This document shows positions 8,733 through 46,692 of a stretch of 64,000 nucleotides of DNA, one piece after another. The notes below the pieces were generated by a model. That model did no database searches. It was given only the letters and a program-made list of their open reading frames with translations, and was not told the origin of the DNA. Positions within the stretch are counted from its first letter, which is position 1. Each line of letters begins with the position of its first letter. The stretch comes from Candidatus Omnitrophota bacterium (GTDB taxonomy: Bacteria > Omnitrophota > Gorgyraeia > Gygaellales > Profunditerraquicolaceae), in assembly GCA_026387355.1 (NCBI GenBank), contig JAPLLW010000011.1, positions 9,504-73,503 of the forward strand, in the 5' to 3' direction. A program made the position numbers and the translations under genes.

Positions 8733-10748
8733 CTATTCGTTTATAACCTTCCAGATTTTGTCCAGATTCTTACGCGCTTCTTCTTCTCCTCTACGGGCAA
8801 ACTCTGAGGCCCTGTGCAATTCAAGCCAATATAGCCCTGAAGTATCAGGATGCAAAACTATATCCGCAAGCAACCCCTCTTTTTGCGCTACCTCAGACTG
8901 AAGTATTTCAAAAGTACTAAATATAATATCCAGTATATTAGTTTTAAATAGATCTTTAAAGTGCCTGCCTAAATTAAACCAGTTCTTCTTTTTTATCTCT
9001 CCGGAGATATTTACCTTTATCCCCTGTTTTATCTTTTCGTATTGATTCAATATATCCTGTCGCGAAGGCGTAACATTAACCGCGATAATCTTTTTTACCC
9101 CCATCTTTAGAAGCGGTTCGGTGGGAAGCGGATTAGTTACCCCGCCATCAAAGAGAAATTCTTCTTTAAATTTAAAAGGCGCAAAAACTCCGGGCATAGA
9201 ACAGCTCGCCATAATTGCATCTGCCAATAAACCTTTATCGAGAACGCGAGGCTCTTTCCTTTTAACATCAGTAGCAATAATCTTAAGCGGAAGGCGTACA
9301 TCATAAAAAGTCTTATCTCCTAAATGCTTCTTCAAAAACCCATGCAGTTTATTGCCTTTAAGAAATCCGATATGCGGAAATGTCAGGTCAATCAAACCCC
9401 AGATATGCTTTGGCTCCTTAAATTCCTTCATAATCTCCAGAATCTCGGAACTTGACTTGCCAATCGCCCAAAGACTAGCAATTAGCGCCCCCATACTGGA
9501 ACCGGCAATAATATCTATCGGGATATTCTCTTCTTCAATTACCTTTAATACGCCCAGATGACAAAAACCATAACCTACCCCTACTCCCAAGACTAAACCT
9601 ACCATACATTCGCCCACATAGCGGGAGATTCTTCTTACCGCTCTGGTATACTCGCTATCCGGCTCATCCAAGACCAACCGGTCAGTAAGACCAGGCTTAA
9701 TCATAGGTAAAGTGGCAAAAATATTCCTATCTAAGATCTTAGCCTGTTCGATAGGAGTAACTTTGGAGAATTTATATTCATTGATAATAATCTTAATTTT
9801 ATCGACTTGAAAATCAAACTCTTTCTTTAACCTAAGAGTAAGATTATGCGTTTTCTCAAGCTCTGGCTCATCCGGACCACTCAATAAATGTATAAGGTCG
9901 GACTGATTCAAGATACTAAATATATTCTTATCTAGAAGCGATGGTAGGTCTAAGATCAGGTAGTGATAGTCATTTACTAACCAACTTAAGATACCCACCA
10001 GACTTCTTACGCACTGATCATCGAGCGGATTATAATAAAAACAAAGCACGTCAATCCCAAAACTGCTATTTAAGATAAAATCTTTGGCTAAGCTTGAATT
10101 CCCGGAATCCTTACTAGAAAGATCAAATACTTTCTCATTACTAATCCCCAGCCTCCCCGGTAAACTATGCTTTTTATTAGCAGAGAGTATGTCCAGTATG
10201 ATTACTGACTTACGTGTCTCATTTTTAAGGCTTAAGGCAAGATTCAAAGCATAAATTGTTTTTCCTGCCTGAGAATATGAACTAAAAACAGAGATAAACG
10301 TACTTACAAAAATTGTTTTTTGATGGACGTCTTTTCTTTTAAGCCTGCGCGATAGGGTCTTACTTAAATCAATAGCTAAACGTGGGATTTTATTAATAAT
10401 AAAATCAAAATCTTCTTTACTAATAACCAGAATCAAACAATCATTAGTTGCCTGGGCAGTAACCGAATGCGTCTCGTTTGTAAGAAGCGAGATTATTCCG
10501 AAATATTTACCTCGGTGCAGATATTCCAGTATCTTCTGTGTGCCCTGGTTATCCTTAGTGTAAATAACCACTCTTCCTTGGGCCAAACAATAAAAACCGC
10601 TAGGGGAAGATCCTTCTTGATAAATTATATCCCCTTTTTTCAATGAAATAACGCTTGAGCGCTGCATGATAATTTTGCGCTGATGGATAGATAAATCCGC
10701 AAAGATAGGAAATTCCTGGATAACTAAACTCTTATTGATTAATTCCAT
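8733..10748 (-). CDS. three-domain protein: N-terminal cNMP-binding-like (CAP effector) domain, degenerate ParA/MinD-like middle domain, C-terminal patatin-like phospholipase
   Basis: aa 1-140: CAP_ED-like (FGIISLL…HSVTAQA). Middle: ParA-like (SQAGKT, HYLILDLPSLLD). C-terminus: patatin GxSxG (AGSSMGA) and DGG (FLFDGGV) catalytic dyad motifs. Confidence 0.75.
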   Translation of the reverse strand: MELINKSLVIQEFPIFADLSIHQRKIIMQRSSVISLKKGDIIYQEGSSPSGFYCLAQGRVVIYTKDNQGTQKILEYLHRGKYFGIISLLTNETHSVTAQATNDCLILVISKEDFDFIINKIPRLAIDLSKTLSRRLKRKDVHQKTIFVSTFISVFSSYSQAGKTIYALNLALSLKNETRKSVIILDILSANKKHSLPGRLGISNEKVFDLSSKDSGNSSLAKDFILNSSFGIDVLCFYYNPLDDQCVRSLVGILSWLVNDYHYLILDLPSLLDKNIFSILNQSDLIHLLSGPDEPELEKTHNLTLRLKKEFDFQVDKIKIIINEYKFSKVTPIEQAKILDRNIFATLPMIKPGLTDRLVLDEPDSEYTRAVRRISRYVGECMVGLVLGVGVGYGFCHLGVLKVIEEENIPIDIIAGSSMGALIASLWAIGKSSSEILEIMKEFKEPKHIWGLIDLTFPHIGFLKGNKLHGFLKKHLGDKTFYDVRLPLKIIATDVKRKEPRVLDKGLLADAIMASCSMPGVFAPFKFKEEFLFDGGVTNPLPTEPLLKMGVKKIIAVNVTPSRQDILNQYEKIKQGIKVNISGEIKKKNWFNLGRHFKDLFKTNILDIIFSTFEILQSEVAQKEGLLADIVLHPDTSGLYWLELHRASEFARRGEEEARKNLDKIWKVINE

Positions 10749-42678: not shown

Positions 42679-43530
42679 CTAAACACCTAATTCGTCGATT
42701 ATCTTAGCCATAATAAAATCGTTTTCAGTGAGCCCTAAAGCTGCATGCGTACTAAGCGTAACTTTTAATTTATTAAAAGTTAGTGTCAAGGTCGGATGAT
42801 GCCCTTGATCCTGGGCGATAATTGAGATTAAATCTAGGAAAAATTTTGCCTCAACAAAATCAGCAAACTTAAACTCTTTAACTATTTTTCTATCTTCAAC
42901 TAATTCCCAGCCACGGCTAAGCGCAAGCAATCTCTCTAATTTTTCCTTAGAAATTGGCGCGATTTCTCCTTCACAAGGTTTACAGTGCAAAGACAGATCT
43001 TCCTTGAGCGTTAACGCAGGGCTCTTAATAACCTCCCCCAGATTCCTTAAAACATCCTCGTAATTTAAGGCGTGGGTTAATTCCGGGGCAATCTGGATGT
43101 ATCTTAAAATATTATTTTTATCTAAAATAAGCGCTGCCCTAGCTAGAAGTTTCAACTCTTTAATCAACAAACCATAATTTATCCCAAAAGAGGAAAATCG
43201 GTAATCTGAGAGTACCATTTCATTCTTAATTTCGTTTAAAGAACAAAATCGGCTTTGCGCAAAAGGTAGGTCATCACTTATCCCTAAGACTACGATATCA
43301 CTAGAAAGCTGGGCTATCTTTTTATTAAATTCCTTAACCTGCAGGTCACAGATAGGAGTATCTAAAGACGGGAAAGAACTAATTACCTTAATCTTGGCTT
43401 TAAAATCCGATAAACTTACTTCCTTTAGGCTATTAGAAATAACCTTAAAATCCGGAGCAATACTACCAAGACTGATTCGCCTTCCTACTAAAGTAAGCGG
43501 GTTTCCTTGAAAAGCTATTTTTAGCGGCAT
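42679..43530 (-). CDS. fusion: thiol peroxidase Tpx + pterin-4a-carbinolamine dehydratase (DCoH)-like domain
   Basis: Tpx: FQGNP…SLDTPIC…LPFAQSRFC…LARAA. C-terminal 100 aa: CKPCEG…GHHPTLTLTF…THAALGLTENDFIMA, matching the PCD [EDKH]x3H[HN]P signature. Confidence 0.7.
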   Translation of the reverse strand: MPLKIAFQGNPLTLVGRRISLGSIAPDFKVISNSLKEVSLSDFKAKIKVISSFPSLDTPICDLQVKEFNKKIAQLSSDIVVLGISDDLPFAQSRFCSLNEIKNEMVLSDYRFSSFGINYGLLIKELKLLARAALILDKNNILRYIQIAPELTHALNYEDVLRNLGEVIKSPALTLKEDLSLHCKPCEGEIAPISKEKLERLLALSRGWELVEDRKIVKEFKFADFVEAKFFLDLISIIAQDQGHHPTLTLTFNKLKVTLSTHAALGLTENDFIMAKIIDELGV

Positions 43531-43542
43531 AAACTTACACCT

Positions 43543-43701
43543 TTAAATCTTCTCAAACATATCCTTGCCTACTCCGCAATCAGGACAGACCCAATCAACG
43601 GGAAGCTTATCAAAAGGCGTACCAGCAGGGATTCCGCCGACTGAATCACCTATAGCAGGGTCATAAATATAACCACAAACAGTACACTTATATTTATCCA
43701 T
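43543..43701 (-). CDS. rubredoxin (52 aa, not in the ORF track)
   Basis: Own translation [20 protein letters not shown]…[17 protein letters not shown]. Two CxxCG knuckles. Confidence 0.85.
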
Positions 43702-44145: not shown

Positions 44146-44634
44146 TTAGCCTTCTCTTTTACCTAATTCCCTATCTAACATAATTAAAGCCGCAGAATCC
44201 GGCTTGATTATTTTCAAGGTGTCCAAGATCGCCGAAGCATTCTTTTCTTCTTCAACCTGCTCGGTGATAAACCACTGCAGAAATATTTCAGCTGCCTTAT
44301 CATCGACTTTTTTAGCTAAATCACTTAAAGACTCGATGAGTGACGTAACTTTCTTTTCATGCTTTAAGGTCTCCACGAACAACTCCTGGACAGAAGCAAA
44401 ATCAAAGGCCGGCTCAGGGATGGCCTGCAGATGCACGCGCGCACCCTTATCATGCAGGAATTCAAACATCTTCATCCCGTGAGATATCTCTTCCTTGTAT
44501 TGGACCTTAAACCACTTAGCAAAACCCGGAAGATTATTGCTTTCGGCAAAAGCTGCCATTGCTAAATAAAGATACCCCGAATAAAATTCATTCTTGATCT
44601 GATCGTTAAATGCCTTCTCTAATTTCTTATCCAT
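44146..44634 (-). CDS. ferritin-like protein (non-heme ferritin)
   Basis: Ferritin diiron ligands (E…EExH…E…QxxE pattern). 162 aa. Confidence 0.7.
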   Translation of the reverse strand: MDKKLEKAFNDQIKNEFYSGYLYLAMAAFAESNNLPGFAKWFKVQYKEEISHGMKMFEFLHDKGARVHLQAIPEPAFDFASVQELFVETLKHEKKVTSLIESLSDLAKKVDDKAAEIFLQWFITEQVEEEKNASAILDTLKIIKPDSAALIMLDRELGKREG

Positions 44635-44649
44635 AAGACTCCCCTTTCT

Positions 44650-45039
44650 TTATTCAACCTTTAATTCCTTAGTATTCTTCCATATCCCGTGTATATTGCA
44701 ATAAGAAGTGACATAAATTGTCCCACTCTTCTCGGTTTTAAATGACACAGCTACGTTAGGCTCGGAGAAAACAGTACTAGTATTCGGTCCTTGCGTAGAC
44801 TCTCCGTGAGTATTGAGCTCGAAACGCGCCACCTGAAAAGGAAATTTCTCCCCCTCAGCTAAGAAATAAACCTCAATTGATTGAATATGATGCTCGGCAG
44901 TATTAGGGTGAGCTATCTCTTTGCCCACAATAACAGCAACCTTTAAAGACTCTCCTCTTTTAATTTTGTCCGGGGCCTCAATTACCGGAACATGTTTTTC
45001 GGTTTTCCAATCTGCGCTCTGTAATAATCAATCTACCAT
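44650..45039 (-). pseudogene. 1Fe superoxide reductase (neelaredoxin) with an in-frame TGA at codon 4 (45028-45030)
   Basis: From the ATG at 45039 with a good SD: M V D [TGA] L L Q S A D W K T E K H V P V I E … Y C N I H G I W. It is co-linear residue for residue with Pyrococcus SOR (MISETIRSGDWKGEKHVPVIE…CNIHGLW). The track ORF starts only at the GTG after the EKHVP motif. Confidence 0.65.
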
Positions 45040-45053
45040 CGCATCCCCCCCTC

Positions 45054-45093
45054 TTTAAAATAACCCCGGCGTCTTTCTTAGAAAAGCGCCGGG
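45054..45093 (-). terminator. hairpin CCCCGGCG-N14-CGCCGGGG followed by a U-rich tract, between the hcp region and the SOR
   Basis: Seen directly. Confidence 0.5.
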
Positions 45094-45101
45094 ATTCAAA
45101 A

Positions 45102-45155
45102 CTACTTCTTCTTTGCTTTCTTCTTTTTCTTTGCTCCGCATTTTCCACAACCCAT
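45102..45155 (-). CDS. 17-aa ORF MGCGKCGAKKKKKAKKK with SD AGGAGGTG, directly after the hcp stop
   Basis: Own translation. Strong ribosome-binding site 5 nt upstream. Could be spurious. Confidence 0.25.
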   Translation of the reverse strand: MGCGKCGAKKKKKAKKK

Positions 45156-45169
45156 ATCCACCTCCTGAT

Positions 45170-46462
45170 TTATTTACTTAAAATTGTTTTTAAGTCTCCA
45201 TCCGGAGTACTGATTAATCTTAAATCAAAACTCTTTTGTAAAACCGAGAATACATTCTTAGAAATAAACGCCGGCGGGGTCGGCCCGACATAAATACCCT
45301 TGATATTAAGATACAACAAAGTGAGCAATATGGCAACTGCTTTTTGCTCAAACCACGATAGAACCATGGTTAAAGGGAGTTCGTTTACTGTACAGTTAAA
45401 TACTTTGCTTAAAGCAAGTGCCACCTGAATTGCAGAATAGGCATTATTACACTGGCCAATATCAATTAGCCGCGGAACCCCATCTATCTCCCCAAAATCC
45501 AGCTTGTTAAAACGGTATTTACCACAGGCAAGCGTAAGGATAACGCAGTCTTTAGGGACTTTTTCCGCAATTTCAGTATAGTAATTCCTACCTGGCTTGG
45601 CACCATCGCAACCGCCGATTAGAAAGAATCTTTTAATCTTTCCTGTCTTAACCAGATTAACAATCTTATCCGCTAAATTTAAGATTGCAGTATGGTGAAA
45701 TCCGGTCAAAATCTTCTTACCCGGAGCCTCTGGCAAAGAAGGTAGGGATTTTGCTTTATCAATCAAAAGCTTGAAATTTCTATCTTTTAAATGCGTAGCC
45801 CCGGGGACACCGGTAATTCCTATTGTAAATAAACGGTCTAAATAGCTATTCTCCGGAGGGATTAATACGCAATTAGTGGTTGCTAGAATAGCGCCACTAA
45901 AATTATTAAACTCGTTTTTTTGCTCCTGCCAAGCTCCTCCATAGTTTCCGACAAGATGCTTGAATTTCTTTAACTCAGGATACCCGTGCGCAGGTAACAT
46001 CTCGCTATGTGTATAAATATTTACGCCTGTGCCTTCGGCCTGCTTCAACAGCTCAAATAAATCCAGTAAATCATGGCCTGTAATCAATATGCCTGGCCCA
46101 GATTTTGTCCCTGTCTCGACAGGAGTTGGAACCGGATTCCCAAAGCTTTCAGTATGGGCCTTGTCTAATAACTCCATAACCTTTAAATTCATCTCTCCGC
46201 ATTTTAATACTTCTTCAAGATGCTGATTAAGGTCAAAACTCACATTTGTAATCGTTTTAAATAGTGCTTCGTGCATAAATGCATCAACCTTTTCATCCCA
46301 GGCGCCAAACTCCCTAGCATGATAGGCGTATGCTGCAATACCTTTTAACCCGAATAATAAAATATCCTGCAGGCTTTGGATATCTTCGTTTTTCCCGCAC
46401 GCACCTACTGATTTTGTACAAGCGCTCCCGCCAATTGTCTGCTCACACTGATAACAAAACAT
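45170..46462 (-). CDS. hcp: hybrid cluster protein / hydroxylamine reductase (short class)
   Basis: N-terminal MFCYQCEQT Cys motif. 430 aa. Confidence 0.85.
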   Translation of the reverse strand: MFCYQCEQTIGGSACTKSVGACGKNEDIQSLQDILLFGLKGIAAYAYHAREFGAWDEKVDAFMHEALFKTITNVSFDLNQHLEEVLKCGEMNLKVMELLDKAHTESFGNPVPTPVETGTKSGPGILITGHDLLDLFELLKQAEGTGVNIYTHSEMLPAHGYPELKKFKHLVGNYGGAWQEQKNEFNNFSGAILATTNCVLIPPENSYLDRLFTIGITGVPGATHLKDRNFKLLIDKAKSLPSLPEAPGKKILTGFHHTAILNLADKIVNLVKTGKIKRFFLIGGCDGAKPGRNYYTEIAEKVPKDCVILTLACGKYRFNKLDFGEIDGVPRLIDIGQCNNAYSAIQVALALSKVFNCTVNELPLTMVLSWFEQKAVAILLTLLYLNIKGIYVGPTPPAFISKNVFSVLQKSFDLRLISTPDGDLKTILSK

Positions 46463-46692
46463 TACTTACCTCCTTTTAACTGCTTCCACTTCTCTTCTCC
46501 GATACATTCTCTTGCCGCTTTACACCAATCTACGCAGGATGGTAAACGACTCCTGCAGATAAAACCCTTACATTTAGGACATTTTACTTTTATCTCATCC
46601 GTAAAGATCTCAGCCGTATAACCGCAATCCGGACACCTAATCGGCTCTGCCTTTATATTACGGTCATCTTGCCCGGGACATTTATTAATCAC
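46462..46692 (-). CDS. Cys-rich zinc-ribbon-like small protein
   Basis: CPDCGY…CPKCKG knuckles. 76 aa. Confidence 0.5.
   Translation of the reverse strand: MINKCPGQDDRNIKAEPIRCPDCGYTAEIFTDEIKVKCPKCKGFICRSRLPSCVDWCKAARECIGEEKWKQLKGGK

What the first reader, a model, noticed from the sequence alone, without database searches (positions are those of the whole stretch)
44650..45039. Superoxide reductase with a perfectly co-linear N-terminus interrupted by an in-frame TGA at codon 4
Seen: from the SD-preceded ATG at 45039 the frame reads M-V-D-TGA-L-L-Q-S-A-D-W-K-T-E-K-H-V-P-V-I-E… and continues into the annotated SOR (…YCNIHGIW). This is co-linear residue for residue with Pyrococcus furiosus SOR (MISETIRSGDWKGEKHVPVIE…).

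TGA is a genuine stop elsewhere in this window (lgt, uppP). The ORF track therefore starts the protein at a GTG after the EKHVP motif, dropping the Glu14/His16 iron ligands.

Possibilities: a sequencing or assembly error (a single base change gives GGA, CGA or TGG), a very recent nonsense mutation, or programmed stop-codon readthrough.
Basis: seen in the sequence. Interest (0 to 1): 0.55.

Follow-up and report, generated by a model that had tools for sequence, protein, structure and literature searches.

The report
Superoxide reductase gene with one-base stop
An ordinary oxygen-defence gene (superoxide reductase) of an uncultured Omnitrophota bacterium is broken at its fourth codon by one base change seen only in this assembly, so it is a sequencing error or a very recent mutation, not a special decoding mechanism.

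Summary
On the minus strand an SD-preceded ATG (45039) is followed by GTA GAT TGA (45030-45028). The frame then runs through a complete class II (1Fe) superoxide reductase to TAA at 44652-44650.

The TGA is a private T->G change at window 45029 (TTA Leu4 -> TGA). All three public contigs that cover the site carry TTA. One of them (L007) is otherwise identical to the window over 1,617 bases. No protein diagnostic of the G allele exists among about 15 billion public proteins. About 18 kb of the window is matched at 100% by contigs from four sequencing runs, and 45029 is the only isolated difference.

None of 80 orthologous loci has an N-terminal stop. TGA is a normal stop in this genome. No SECIS-like structure, suppressor tRNA or Rfam element is present, so programmed readthrough is rejected. 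The 92-aa GTG ORF lacks Glu14, Lys15 and His16 and is a gene-calling by-product.

Without reads I cannot separate a consensus or base-call error (about 55%) from a real, very recent nonsense allele (about 40%). Either way the finding is ordinary and of low interest.

The parts
44650..45039 (-). Complete reading frame of a class II (1Fe, neelaredoxin-type) superoxide reductase, 129 codons plus TAA, interrupted at codon 4.
   Evidence: Sequence and translation. Pfam PF01880 E 2.8e-32, residues 9-122. PDB 2AMU E 3.6e-44 and 1DO6 E 4.8e-43. P0001 is an intact 129-aa protein, 99% identical.
45028..45030 (-). In-frame TGA at codon 4. The private base is 45029 (G on the minus strand, C on the plus strand). 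Relatives have T, giving TTA = Leu.
   Evidence: DNA alignment with L001 and L002. Per-base comparison with L001, L002 and L007. Classified as the only nonsense site among 86 variable sites.
45037..45039 (-). ATG start codon of the superoxide reductase, the same start as in the intact relatives.
   Evidence: It is the first start after an in-frame TAA. P0001 starts MVDLLLQ at the identical ATG in L001 and L002. 78 of 80 orthologues have a canonical in-frame start 10-26 codons before the Trp of the DWK motif, usually 12.
45045..45053 (-). Shine-Dalgarno-like GAGGGGGGG run (seven G), 5 nt upstream of the ATG. It is identical in all contigs compared.
   Evidence: Sequence. Invariant in alignment A1.
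44650..44928 (-). The 92-aa GTG-initiated ORF that mechanical ORF calling reports. It is the C-terminal 71% of the enzyme and lacks Glu14, Lys15 and His16. It is a by-product of the stop, not a gene product of the species.
   Evidence: ORF list. (profile positions 31-97 only). This exact product is absent from public collections.
44990..44998 (-). Codons 14-16 (GAA AAA CAT = Glu14-Lys15-His16). This is the iron-ligand and catalytic-lysine motif that is lost unless translation passes codon 4.
   Evidence: Sequence. It aligns to EKH of P. furiosus SOR 1DO6 and T. maritima 2AMU. The ligand roles come from established knowledge of 1Fe-SOR structures.
44978..45148 (-). Overlapping 56-aa ORF in another frame, probably spurious with no Pfam hit. 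It was used here as an allele marker: the G allele gives ...GRLIIT..., the T allele ...GRFIIT...
   Evidence: It was called as a gene in L001 and L002. The T version is in the collection (P0121) and the G version is not.
45055..45096 (-). Strong hairpin (15 pairs with one bulge) followed by UUAUUUU, between the hcp/tiny-ORF unit and the SOR ribosome-binding site. It is terminator-like and forms the upstream boundary of the SOR translation signals.
   Evidence: -21.9 kcal/mol, z -3.47, 1 of 200 shuffles fold as well. The simple terminator scan missed it.

Best explanation
The locus encodes an ordinary class II (1Fe) superoxide reductase of a Candidatus Omnitrophota bacterium. It is the first gene of an oxidative-stress cluster that continues with ferritin, a small membrane protein, rubredoxin, a thiol peroxidase fusion and an FAD/NAD oxidoreductase. 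In the species the gene starts at the ATG at 45039 and encodes 129 residues beginning MVDLLLQSADWKTEKH. In this assembly one base, 45029, reads G instead of T on the coding strand, turning Leu4 (TTA) into TGA. I think the most likely cause is an error in the consensus sequence of this assembly, such as a miscalled base in a thinly covered stretch. On that reading the organism makes the full-length enzyme and nothing unusual happens at codon 4. Shown: the change is one base, it is private to this sequence, and it is not conserved. Inferred: that it is an artefact rather than a real allele.
For: 1. All three public contigs covering the site have TTA: L001 (SRR12676968, 99.6% identical to the window), L002 (ERZ27271942, 98.8%) and L007 (SRR20698639). 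L007's single mismatch in 1,617 bases is exactly 45029.
2. Contigs from SRR20698638, SRR20698639, ERR15302206 and ERR15302223 match about 18 kb of the window at 100%. 45029 is the only isolated difference.
3. Neither product specific to the G allele (the 92-aa GTG ORF and the 56-aa overlapping ORF with Leu) occurs among about 15 billion public proteins. The T-allele versions (P0001, P0121) do occur.
4. Real variation among strains here is 60 synonymous, 25 non-synonymous and 1 nonsense site, with 71 transitions and 15 transversions. The 45029 change is the only nonsense site and is a T->G transversion, so it does not fit the natural pattern. Random errors produce stop codons far more often than surviving polymorphisms do (inference).
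5. Apart from this one base, the part of the gene covered by same-strain contigs (44650-45013) is base-for-base identical to them, with no further decay.
6. Two Logan assemblies break 16-40 nt from the site (L003 and L005 start at 45013, L007 ends at 44989). This is compatible with poor read support there (inference).
Against: No reads, coverage or quality values are available, so the error is inferred and not shown. Consensus errors in short-read metagenome assemblies are rarer than real strain differences. No other error-like difference was found in about 18 kb, so the assembly looks accurate overall. L007 cannot be phased across the site. The nearest sites that distinguish strains are 45734 upstream and 44898 downstream, and L007 ends at 44989. 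Its T could therefore come from a co-occurring L001-like strain rather than from the window's own haplotype.
Confidence: 0.55

Rival explanations
1. The T->G change is real: a very recent nonsense mutation carried by the sequenced population or a sub-population of it. The strain then makes only the tripeptide Met-Val-Asp from this gene and has lost superoxide reductase activity. The gene is a newborn pseudogene or a segregating loss-of-function allele.
For: Real single-base differences between populations are commoner than consensus errors in good assemblies. The window shows no other suspicious difference in about 18 kb. The absence of any further damage in the gene fits a very young lesion. 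Contig breaks next to the site in two assemblies could reflect a polymorphic branch. L007's T cannot be phased to the window haplotype (with the sites listed).
Against: The G allele is seen in no public contig or protein. The gene family is strongly conserved with intact N-termini in all 80 related genomes. Variation in this cluster is under purifying selection, with 60 synonymous and 25 non-synonymous sites and no other stop. The window carries no second SOR copy to compensate.
Confidence: 0.4
2. The TGA is decoded on purpose, by programmed stop-codon readthrough, selenocysteine insertion or a reassigned genetic code, so that full-length enzyme is made from the sequence as written.
For: The only support is that the frame is perfectly open and conserved on both sides of the TGA. 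Some spontaneous UGA readthrough by tRNA-Trp is known in bacteria (general knowledge).
Against: The stop is not conserved. All 3 conspecific contigs have TTA (Leu) and none of 80 orthologues has a stop there. Position 4 is Leu in every 129-aa homologue read, not Cys, Sec, Trp or Gly. The 86 nt around and after the TGA fold no better than shuffles, with z -0.26. The window has no tRNA with a UCA anticodon and no Rfam element. TGA terminates 15 of 45 long ORFs, including translationally coupled ATGA overlaps, and family profiles are complete before it, which excludes codes 4 and 25.
Confidence: 0.03
3. The short 92-aa protein starting at the GTG at 44928, or some other internal start, is the genuine functional product.
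For: It is the longest canonical ORF under the standard code.
Against: It lacks profile positions 1-30 of PF01880. It also lacks the Glu14-Lys15-His16 motif that aligns with the iron ligands of solved SORs. No canonical in-frame start lies between the TGA and His16. This exact product is absent from public collections. All relatives are 129-134 aa.
Confidence: 0.02

Closest known systems
Pyrococcus furiosus superoxide reductase (PDB 1DO6, 1DQI, 1DQK), a 1Fe-SOR or neelaredoxin-type class II enzyme
   Same: It is co-linear from residue 2 to the C-terminus at E 4.8e-43. Length is similar (124 vs 129 aa) and it has a single domain. The E-K-H motif sits at positions 14-16. The HPNT(x)EHH and YCNIHG motifs supply the remaining His and Cys ligands, which are His44, His50, Cys114 and His117 in window numbering (read from the alignment; ligand roles are from established knowledge).
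   Different: The window protein has a 3-residue insertion after Glu21 and comes from a bacterium (Omnitrophota) rather than an archaeon. In this assembly codon 4 is TGA.
Thermotoga maritima putative superoxide reductase (PDB 2AMU, 3QZB)
   Same: This is the best PDB match at E 3.6e-44, aligning query 6-129 to chain 19-142 without gaps.
   Different: The N-terminal extension differs, and there is no stop codon issue.
'Class II SORL domain-containing protein' of Candidatus Omnitrophota MAGs (NCBI naming; e.g. P0021, P0047, P0068)
   Same: These share 70-81% identity and 129-134 aa length. Members read share the N-terminal pattern M-x-[DE]-(L-K-D)-L-L-Q-S-A-D-W-K-T-E-K-H. The window's species variant P0001 is 99% identical and intact.
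   Different: Only the window copy carries the in-frame stop.
Desulfoferrodoxin (2Fe-SOR, class I; PDB 1DFX, 1VZG, 2JI1)
   Same: The C-terminal iron centre II domain is homologous, with weak hits at E 1e-4 to 1e-5.
   Different: The window protein has no N-terminal desulforedoxin-like FeCys4 domain, so it is not class I.

Membership tests
Superoxide reductase, class II (1Fe-SOR / neelaredoxin; Pfam PF01880) | Significant match to the SOR (Desulfoferrodoxin) domain profile over its full length | tested here: met
   PF01880 E 2.8e-32, 111.6 bits against a cut-off of 22.2, profile positions 2-97 of 98. This was scored on the frame with codon 4 read as sense.
Superoxide reductase, class II (1Fe-SOR / neelaredoxin; Pfam PF01880) | Four His plus one Cys iron ligands, and the Glu/Lys of the E-K-H motif, at the positions seen in solved structures | tested here: met
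   the alignment to 1DO6 and 2AMU conserves EKH (14-16), H in IAHPN (44), the first H of EHH (50), and C and H of YCNIHG (114, 117). The assignment of these positions as ligands rests on established structural knowledge and was not recomputed here.
Superoxide reductase, class II (1Fe-SOR / neelaredoxin; Pfam PF01880) | Single-domain architecture of about 125-135 aa without an N-terminal desulforedoxin domain (which would make it class I) | tested here: met
   129 codons, with an in-frame TAA six codons upstream of the ATG. Homologues are 129-134 aa. There is only a weak partial match to class I desulfoferrodoxins.
Superoxide reductase, class II (1Fe-SOR / neelaredoxin; Pfam PF01880) | An uninterrupted reading frame, so that the protein can be made | tested here: not met
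   TGA at codon 4 in the window. The frame is uninterrupted in the conspecific contigs L001, L002 and L007. As written, the window copy is a disrupted gene. The species' gene is a member.
Superoxide reductase, class II (1Fe-SOR / neelaredoxin; Pfam PF01880) | Superoxide-reducing activity with rubredoxin as electron donor | not testable with these tools
   Only context is available: a rubredoxin gene (43543-43701) lies three genes downstream in the same orientation.
Programmed UGA recoding (selenocysteine insertion or programmed readthrough) | The UGA is conserved at the same position in orthologues | tested here: not met
   None of 3 conspecific contigs and none of 80 orthologous loci carries it.
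Programmed UGA recoding (selenocysteine insertion or programmed readthrough) | A stable stem-loop (bacterial SECIS) or other recoding structure immediately downstream of the UGA | tested here: not met
   minimum free energy -13.9 kcal/mol against a shuffle mean of -13.2, z -0.26. No Rfam match.
Programmed UGA recoding (selenocysteine insertion or programmed readthrough) | Cys (for Sec) or a functionally required residue at the homologous position in relatives | tested here: not met
   The position is Leu in every 129-aa homologue read. It lies outside the Pfam domain, which starts at residue 9.
Alternative genetic code with TGA as sense (tables 4 and 25) | TGA occurs inside conserved genes and does not terminate them | tested here: not met
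   15 of 45 ORFs of at least 200 aa end in TGA, with ATGA overlaps. 72% of the window is covered by such ORFs under table 11. The LGT and HcyBio profiles are complete before their TGA.

The most novel reading that the evidence does not exclude
The TGA is real in the living population and the cell still obtains some full-length superoxide reductase through leaky decoding of this very early UGA, for example near-cognate reading by tRNA-Trp. The point mutation would then act as a strong down-tuning of an oxygen-defence enzyme rather than a knock-out.
Probability: 0.03. Interest if true: 0.35.

Novelty: already known. Interest (0 to 1): 0.08.

Why it matters
It matters mainly for annotation quality. 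The gene should be annotated as a full-length class II superoxide reductase, either with a probable sequence error or as a disrupted gene. It should not be annotated as a 92-aa protein, and it is not a candidate for stop-codon recoding. If the stop is real, it is one loss-of-function allele of an oxygen-defence gene segregating in an anaerobic Omnitrophota population. That is of minor population-genetic interest and opens no new biological question.

Tried and rejected
1. Exact look-up of the 92-aa GTG ORF found nothing on record. It could not be used to locate the source contig.

2. A pattern scan leaving the variable base free (GCGATGGTAGATTNATTATTACAGAGCGCAGATTGG) gave no hits in species-representative genomes or in JGI metagenomes. 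The window's species has no representative with this exact flank in either collection.

3. Exact look-up of the G-allele 56-aa overlapping ORF found nothing. I treat this as evidence against a public G allele.

4. I tried to find the window's own 64-kb source contig through neighbouring proteins. Only short Logan or ENA contigs of 1-5 kb were returned, and one look-up found nothing. Provenance and coverage therefore remain unknown.

5. SECIS or readthrough structure: none. Suppressor tRNA: none, only tRNA-Phe in the window. Rfam: only that tRNA.

6. An alternative genetic code was rejected.

7. An alternative in-frame start between the TGA and His16: there is no ATG, GTG or TTG. The in-frame ATT codons at positions 20 and 26 lie after His16.

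8. A second SOR copy in the window that could compensate: none.

9. Literature searches for Omnitrophota plus superoxide reductase, and for the run accessions, returned no papers.

10. I tried to interpret the shared contig break at 45013/44989 as an allele bubble. The coordinates do not fit a simple k=31 SNP bubble centred on 45029, so it is left unexplained.

Full report
**What is in the sequence**

On the minus strand the window reads AAAGAGGGGGGGATGCG-ATG-GTA-GAT-TGA-TTA-TTA-CAG-AGC-GCA-GAT-TGG-AAA-ACC-GAA-AAA-CAT-GTT-CCG.... The ATG is at 45039-45037, the TGA at 45030-45028, and the frame ends with TAA at 44652-44650. The conceptual product is MVD*LLQSADWKTEKHVPVIE...SYCNIHGIWKNTKELKVE, 129 codons.

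The ATG is the first start codon after an in-frame TAA six codons upstream. It lies 5 nt after a G-rich Shine-Dalgarno-like run. No ATG, GTG or TTG occurs in frame between the TGA and the GTG at 44928, which is where mechanical ORF listing begins a 92-aa product.

**What the gene is**

With codon 4 read as sense, the protein matches Pfam PF01880 (the superoxide reductase domain) over profile positions 2-97 of 98, at E 2.8e-32. The 92-aa form covers only positions 31-97.

Against solved structures the best matches are Thermotoga maritima SOR 2AMU (E 3.6e-44) and Pyrococcus furiosus SOR 1DO6 (E 4.8e-43). Glu14-Lys15-His16, His44, His50, Cys114 and His117 align with the iron-site residues of these enzymes. 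Their roles are taken from established knowledge of 1Fe-SOR structures. There is no N-terminal desulforedoxin domain, so this is a class II (1Fe, neelaredoxin-type) enzyme.

Protein search gave 2,746 homologues. The best 120 are 129-134 aa. Those that carry a source name are called superoxide reductase or class II SORL domain-containing protein of Candidatus Omnitrophota. The closest species-representative genomes are almost all Omnitrophota MAGs.

The neighbours fit an anaerobe's oxidative-stress cluster:
- hybrid-cluster protein upstream;
- ferritin, a small membrane protein, rubredoxin, a peroxiredoxin fusion and an FAD/NAD oxidoreductase downstream, all on the same strand.

**The decisive comparison**

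The top protein hit, P0001, is 99% identical, exactly 129 aa, and begins MVDLLLQSADWK. It is encoded on two contigs assembled separately: L001 (Logan assembly of SRR12676968) and L002 (ENA assembly ERZ27271942). Aligned with the window, both have TTA where the window has TGA. The difference is a single T->G at window 45029. These two contigs are 99.6% and 98.8% identical to the window overall, so they are conspecific but slightly diverged.

Contigs of the window's own strain also exist. L003, L004 and L005 match the window at 100%, but they start at 45013 or 44719 and miss the site. L007, from the same run as L005, covers 44989-46605. It differs from the window at exactly one base, 45029, where it too has T.

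Further look-ups extended the set of 100%-identical contigs to about 18 kb of the window. They come from runs SRR20698638, SRR20698639, ERR15302206 and ERR15302223. The only isolated difference is 45029. One further contig (L096) has three clustered differences at its end.

An overlapping 56-aa ORF in another frame spans the site and was called as a gene in L001 and L002, so it serves as an allele marker. The T version is in the 15-billion-protein collection. The G version, the 92-aa GTG ORF and the window-strain intact SOR are not. In short, three of three public contigs carry T, and nothing public carries G.

**Is the stop a conserved or programmed feature? No.**

- I extracted the N-terminal region of 80 orthologous loci from species-representative genomes. 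78 have a canonical start 10-26 codons before the Trp of the DWK motif, usually 12, and none has an in-frame stop there. Of the two exceptions, L083 merely has a variant motif. L023 has ATC in place of the start codon.
- Position 4 is Leu in every 129-aa homologue read.
- The RNA around and after the TGA folds no better than shuffled sequence, z -0.26.
- The window has only a tRNA-Phe and no Rfam match apart from that tRNA.
- TGA is a normal stop in this genome. It ends 15 of 45 ORFs of at least 200 aa, several in ATGA overlaps typical of translational coupling. The LGT and HcyBio profiles are essentially complete before their TGA.

Selenocysteine, programmed readthrough and codes 4 and 25 are therefore rejected. 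So is the idea that the 92-aa form is a genuine product. It lacks one His ligand, the Glu and the catalytic Lys, along with the first 30 profile positions.

**Error or real mutation?**

This cannot be settled without reads. I lean towards error, about 55% against 40%, for these reasons.

- Natural variation between the window and the diverged strains comprises 86 sites: 60 synonymous, 25 non-synonymous and 1 nonsense, with 71 transitions and 15 transversions. That is a clear purifying-selection pattern. The 45029 change is the sole nonsense site and is a transversion.
- Random miscalls create stops at several per cent of coding sites, whereas surviving polymorphisms very rarely do (inference).
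- Apart from that base, the gene is identical to the same-strain contigs over the stretch they cover, 44650-45013.
- Two Logan assemblies break within 16-40 nt of the site, which hints at thin read support there.

Against the error reading:
- The window shows no other error-like difference in about 18 kb.
- Real strain differences are commoner than consensus errors.
- L007 cannot be phased to the window haplotype across 45029. The nearest discriminating sites are 45734 and 44898, and L007 ends at 44989. Its T could therefore belong to a co-occurring L001-like strain.

If the allele is real, the cell makes only Met-Val-Asp from this gene and has just lost SOR. The window holds no second copy.

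**Comparison with what is known, and novelty**

The enzyme is a routine member of the class II SOR family, already named as such in Omnitrophota MAGs. A private point lesion in one assembly is a familiar situation. Nothing suggests a new mechanism. The practical consequence concerns annotation: call the gene from 45039, and flag codon 4 as a probable sequence error or the gene as disrupted. Interest is low.

Noticed in passing
window 45101-45154 (minus strand): A tiny ORF preceded by AGGAGG encodes MGCGKCGAKKKKKAKKK (17 aa: two Cys, then a Lys-rich tail). It lies directly after the hybrid-cluster-protein gene (45170-46462) and before the hairpin. I did not check whether it is conserved or translated.
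   Followed up: no
window 45055-45096 (minus strand): A strong hairpin (-21.9 kcal/mol, z -3.47) followed by UUAUUUU ends only about 2 nt before the SOR Shine-Dalgarno run. That leaves no room for a promoter, and no sigma-70-like site was found in 44600-45300. SOR may therefore be transcribed through this terminator-like element from the hcp promoter, or the hairpin may be a processing or stability element.
   Followed up: partly
window 42679-43530 (minus strand): A 283-aa protein combines a thiol-peroxidase domain (AhpC-TSA/Redoxin) with a C-terminal pterin-4a-carbinolamine-dehydratase-like domain (PF01329). This comes from the Pfam listing for the gene at the corresponding position in L001. 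It looked to me like an unusual fusion inside the oxidative-stress cluster, but I did not check how common it is.
   Followed up: no
L023:1480-1510 (CAZQGT010000018.1): This SOR orthologue has ATC where every other orthologue has its start codon, 6 nt after AAGGAGG. It is either a rare non-canonical start or another single-base error in a MAG. It is a second example of N-terminal damage in this gene family.
   Followed up: partly
L003 and L005 start at window 45013; L007 ends at window 44989: Logan assemblies of two runs (SRR20698638 and SRR20698639) break at the same coordinate next to the variable base, leaving only a 25-nt overlap. This does not fit a simple k=31 SNP bubble at 45029. It could reflect low coverage, a shared low-complexity library or a branch caused by co-occurring strains.
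   Followed up: partly
L008 and L009 (MAG bin S2.101, JAKLQX01): One Omnitrophota MAG carries two SOR genes about 80% identical to the query on different contigs. So SOR paralogues, or strain duplicates within a bin, exist in the phylum. The window itself has only one copy.
   Followed up: no
window 10287-10306: Three clustered differences (T/A, T/G, T/C) separate the window from contigs L095 and L096 at the ends of those contigs. This looks like a local strain-variable patch inside the 671-aa ORF at 8733-10748.
   Followed up: no
window 44264-44397 (ferritin gene): L002 differs from the window at 24 sites within 134 nt of the ferritin gene, mostly synonymous, but at only 5 sites in its other 2 kb (sites classified). 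This suggests a recombined segment from a more distant strain, or a chimeric contig end.
   Followed up: no
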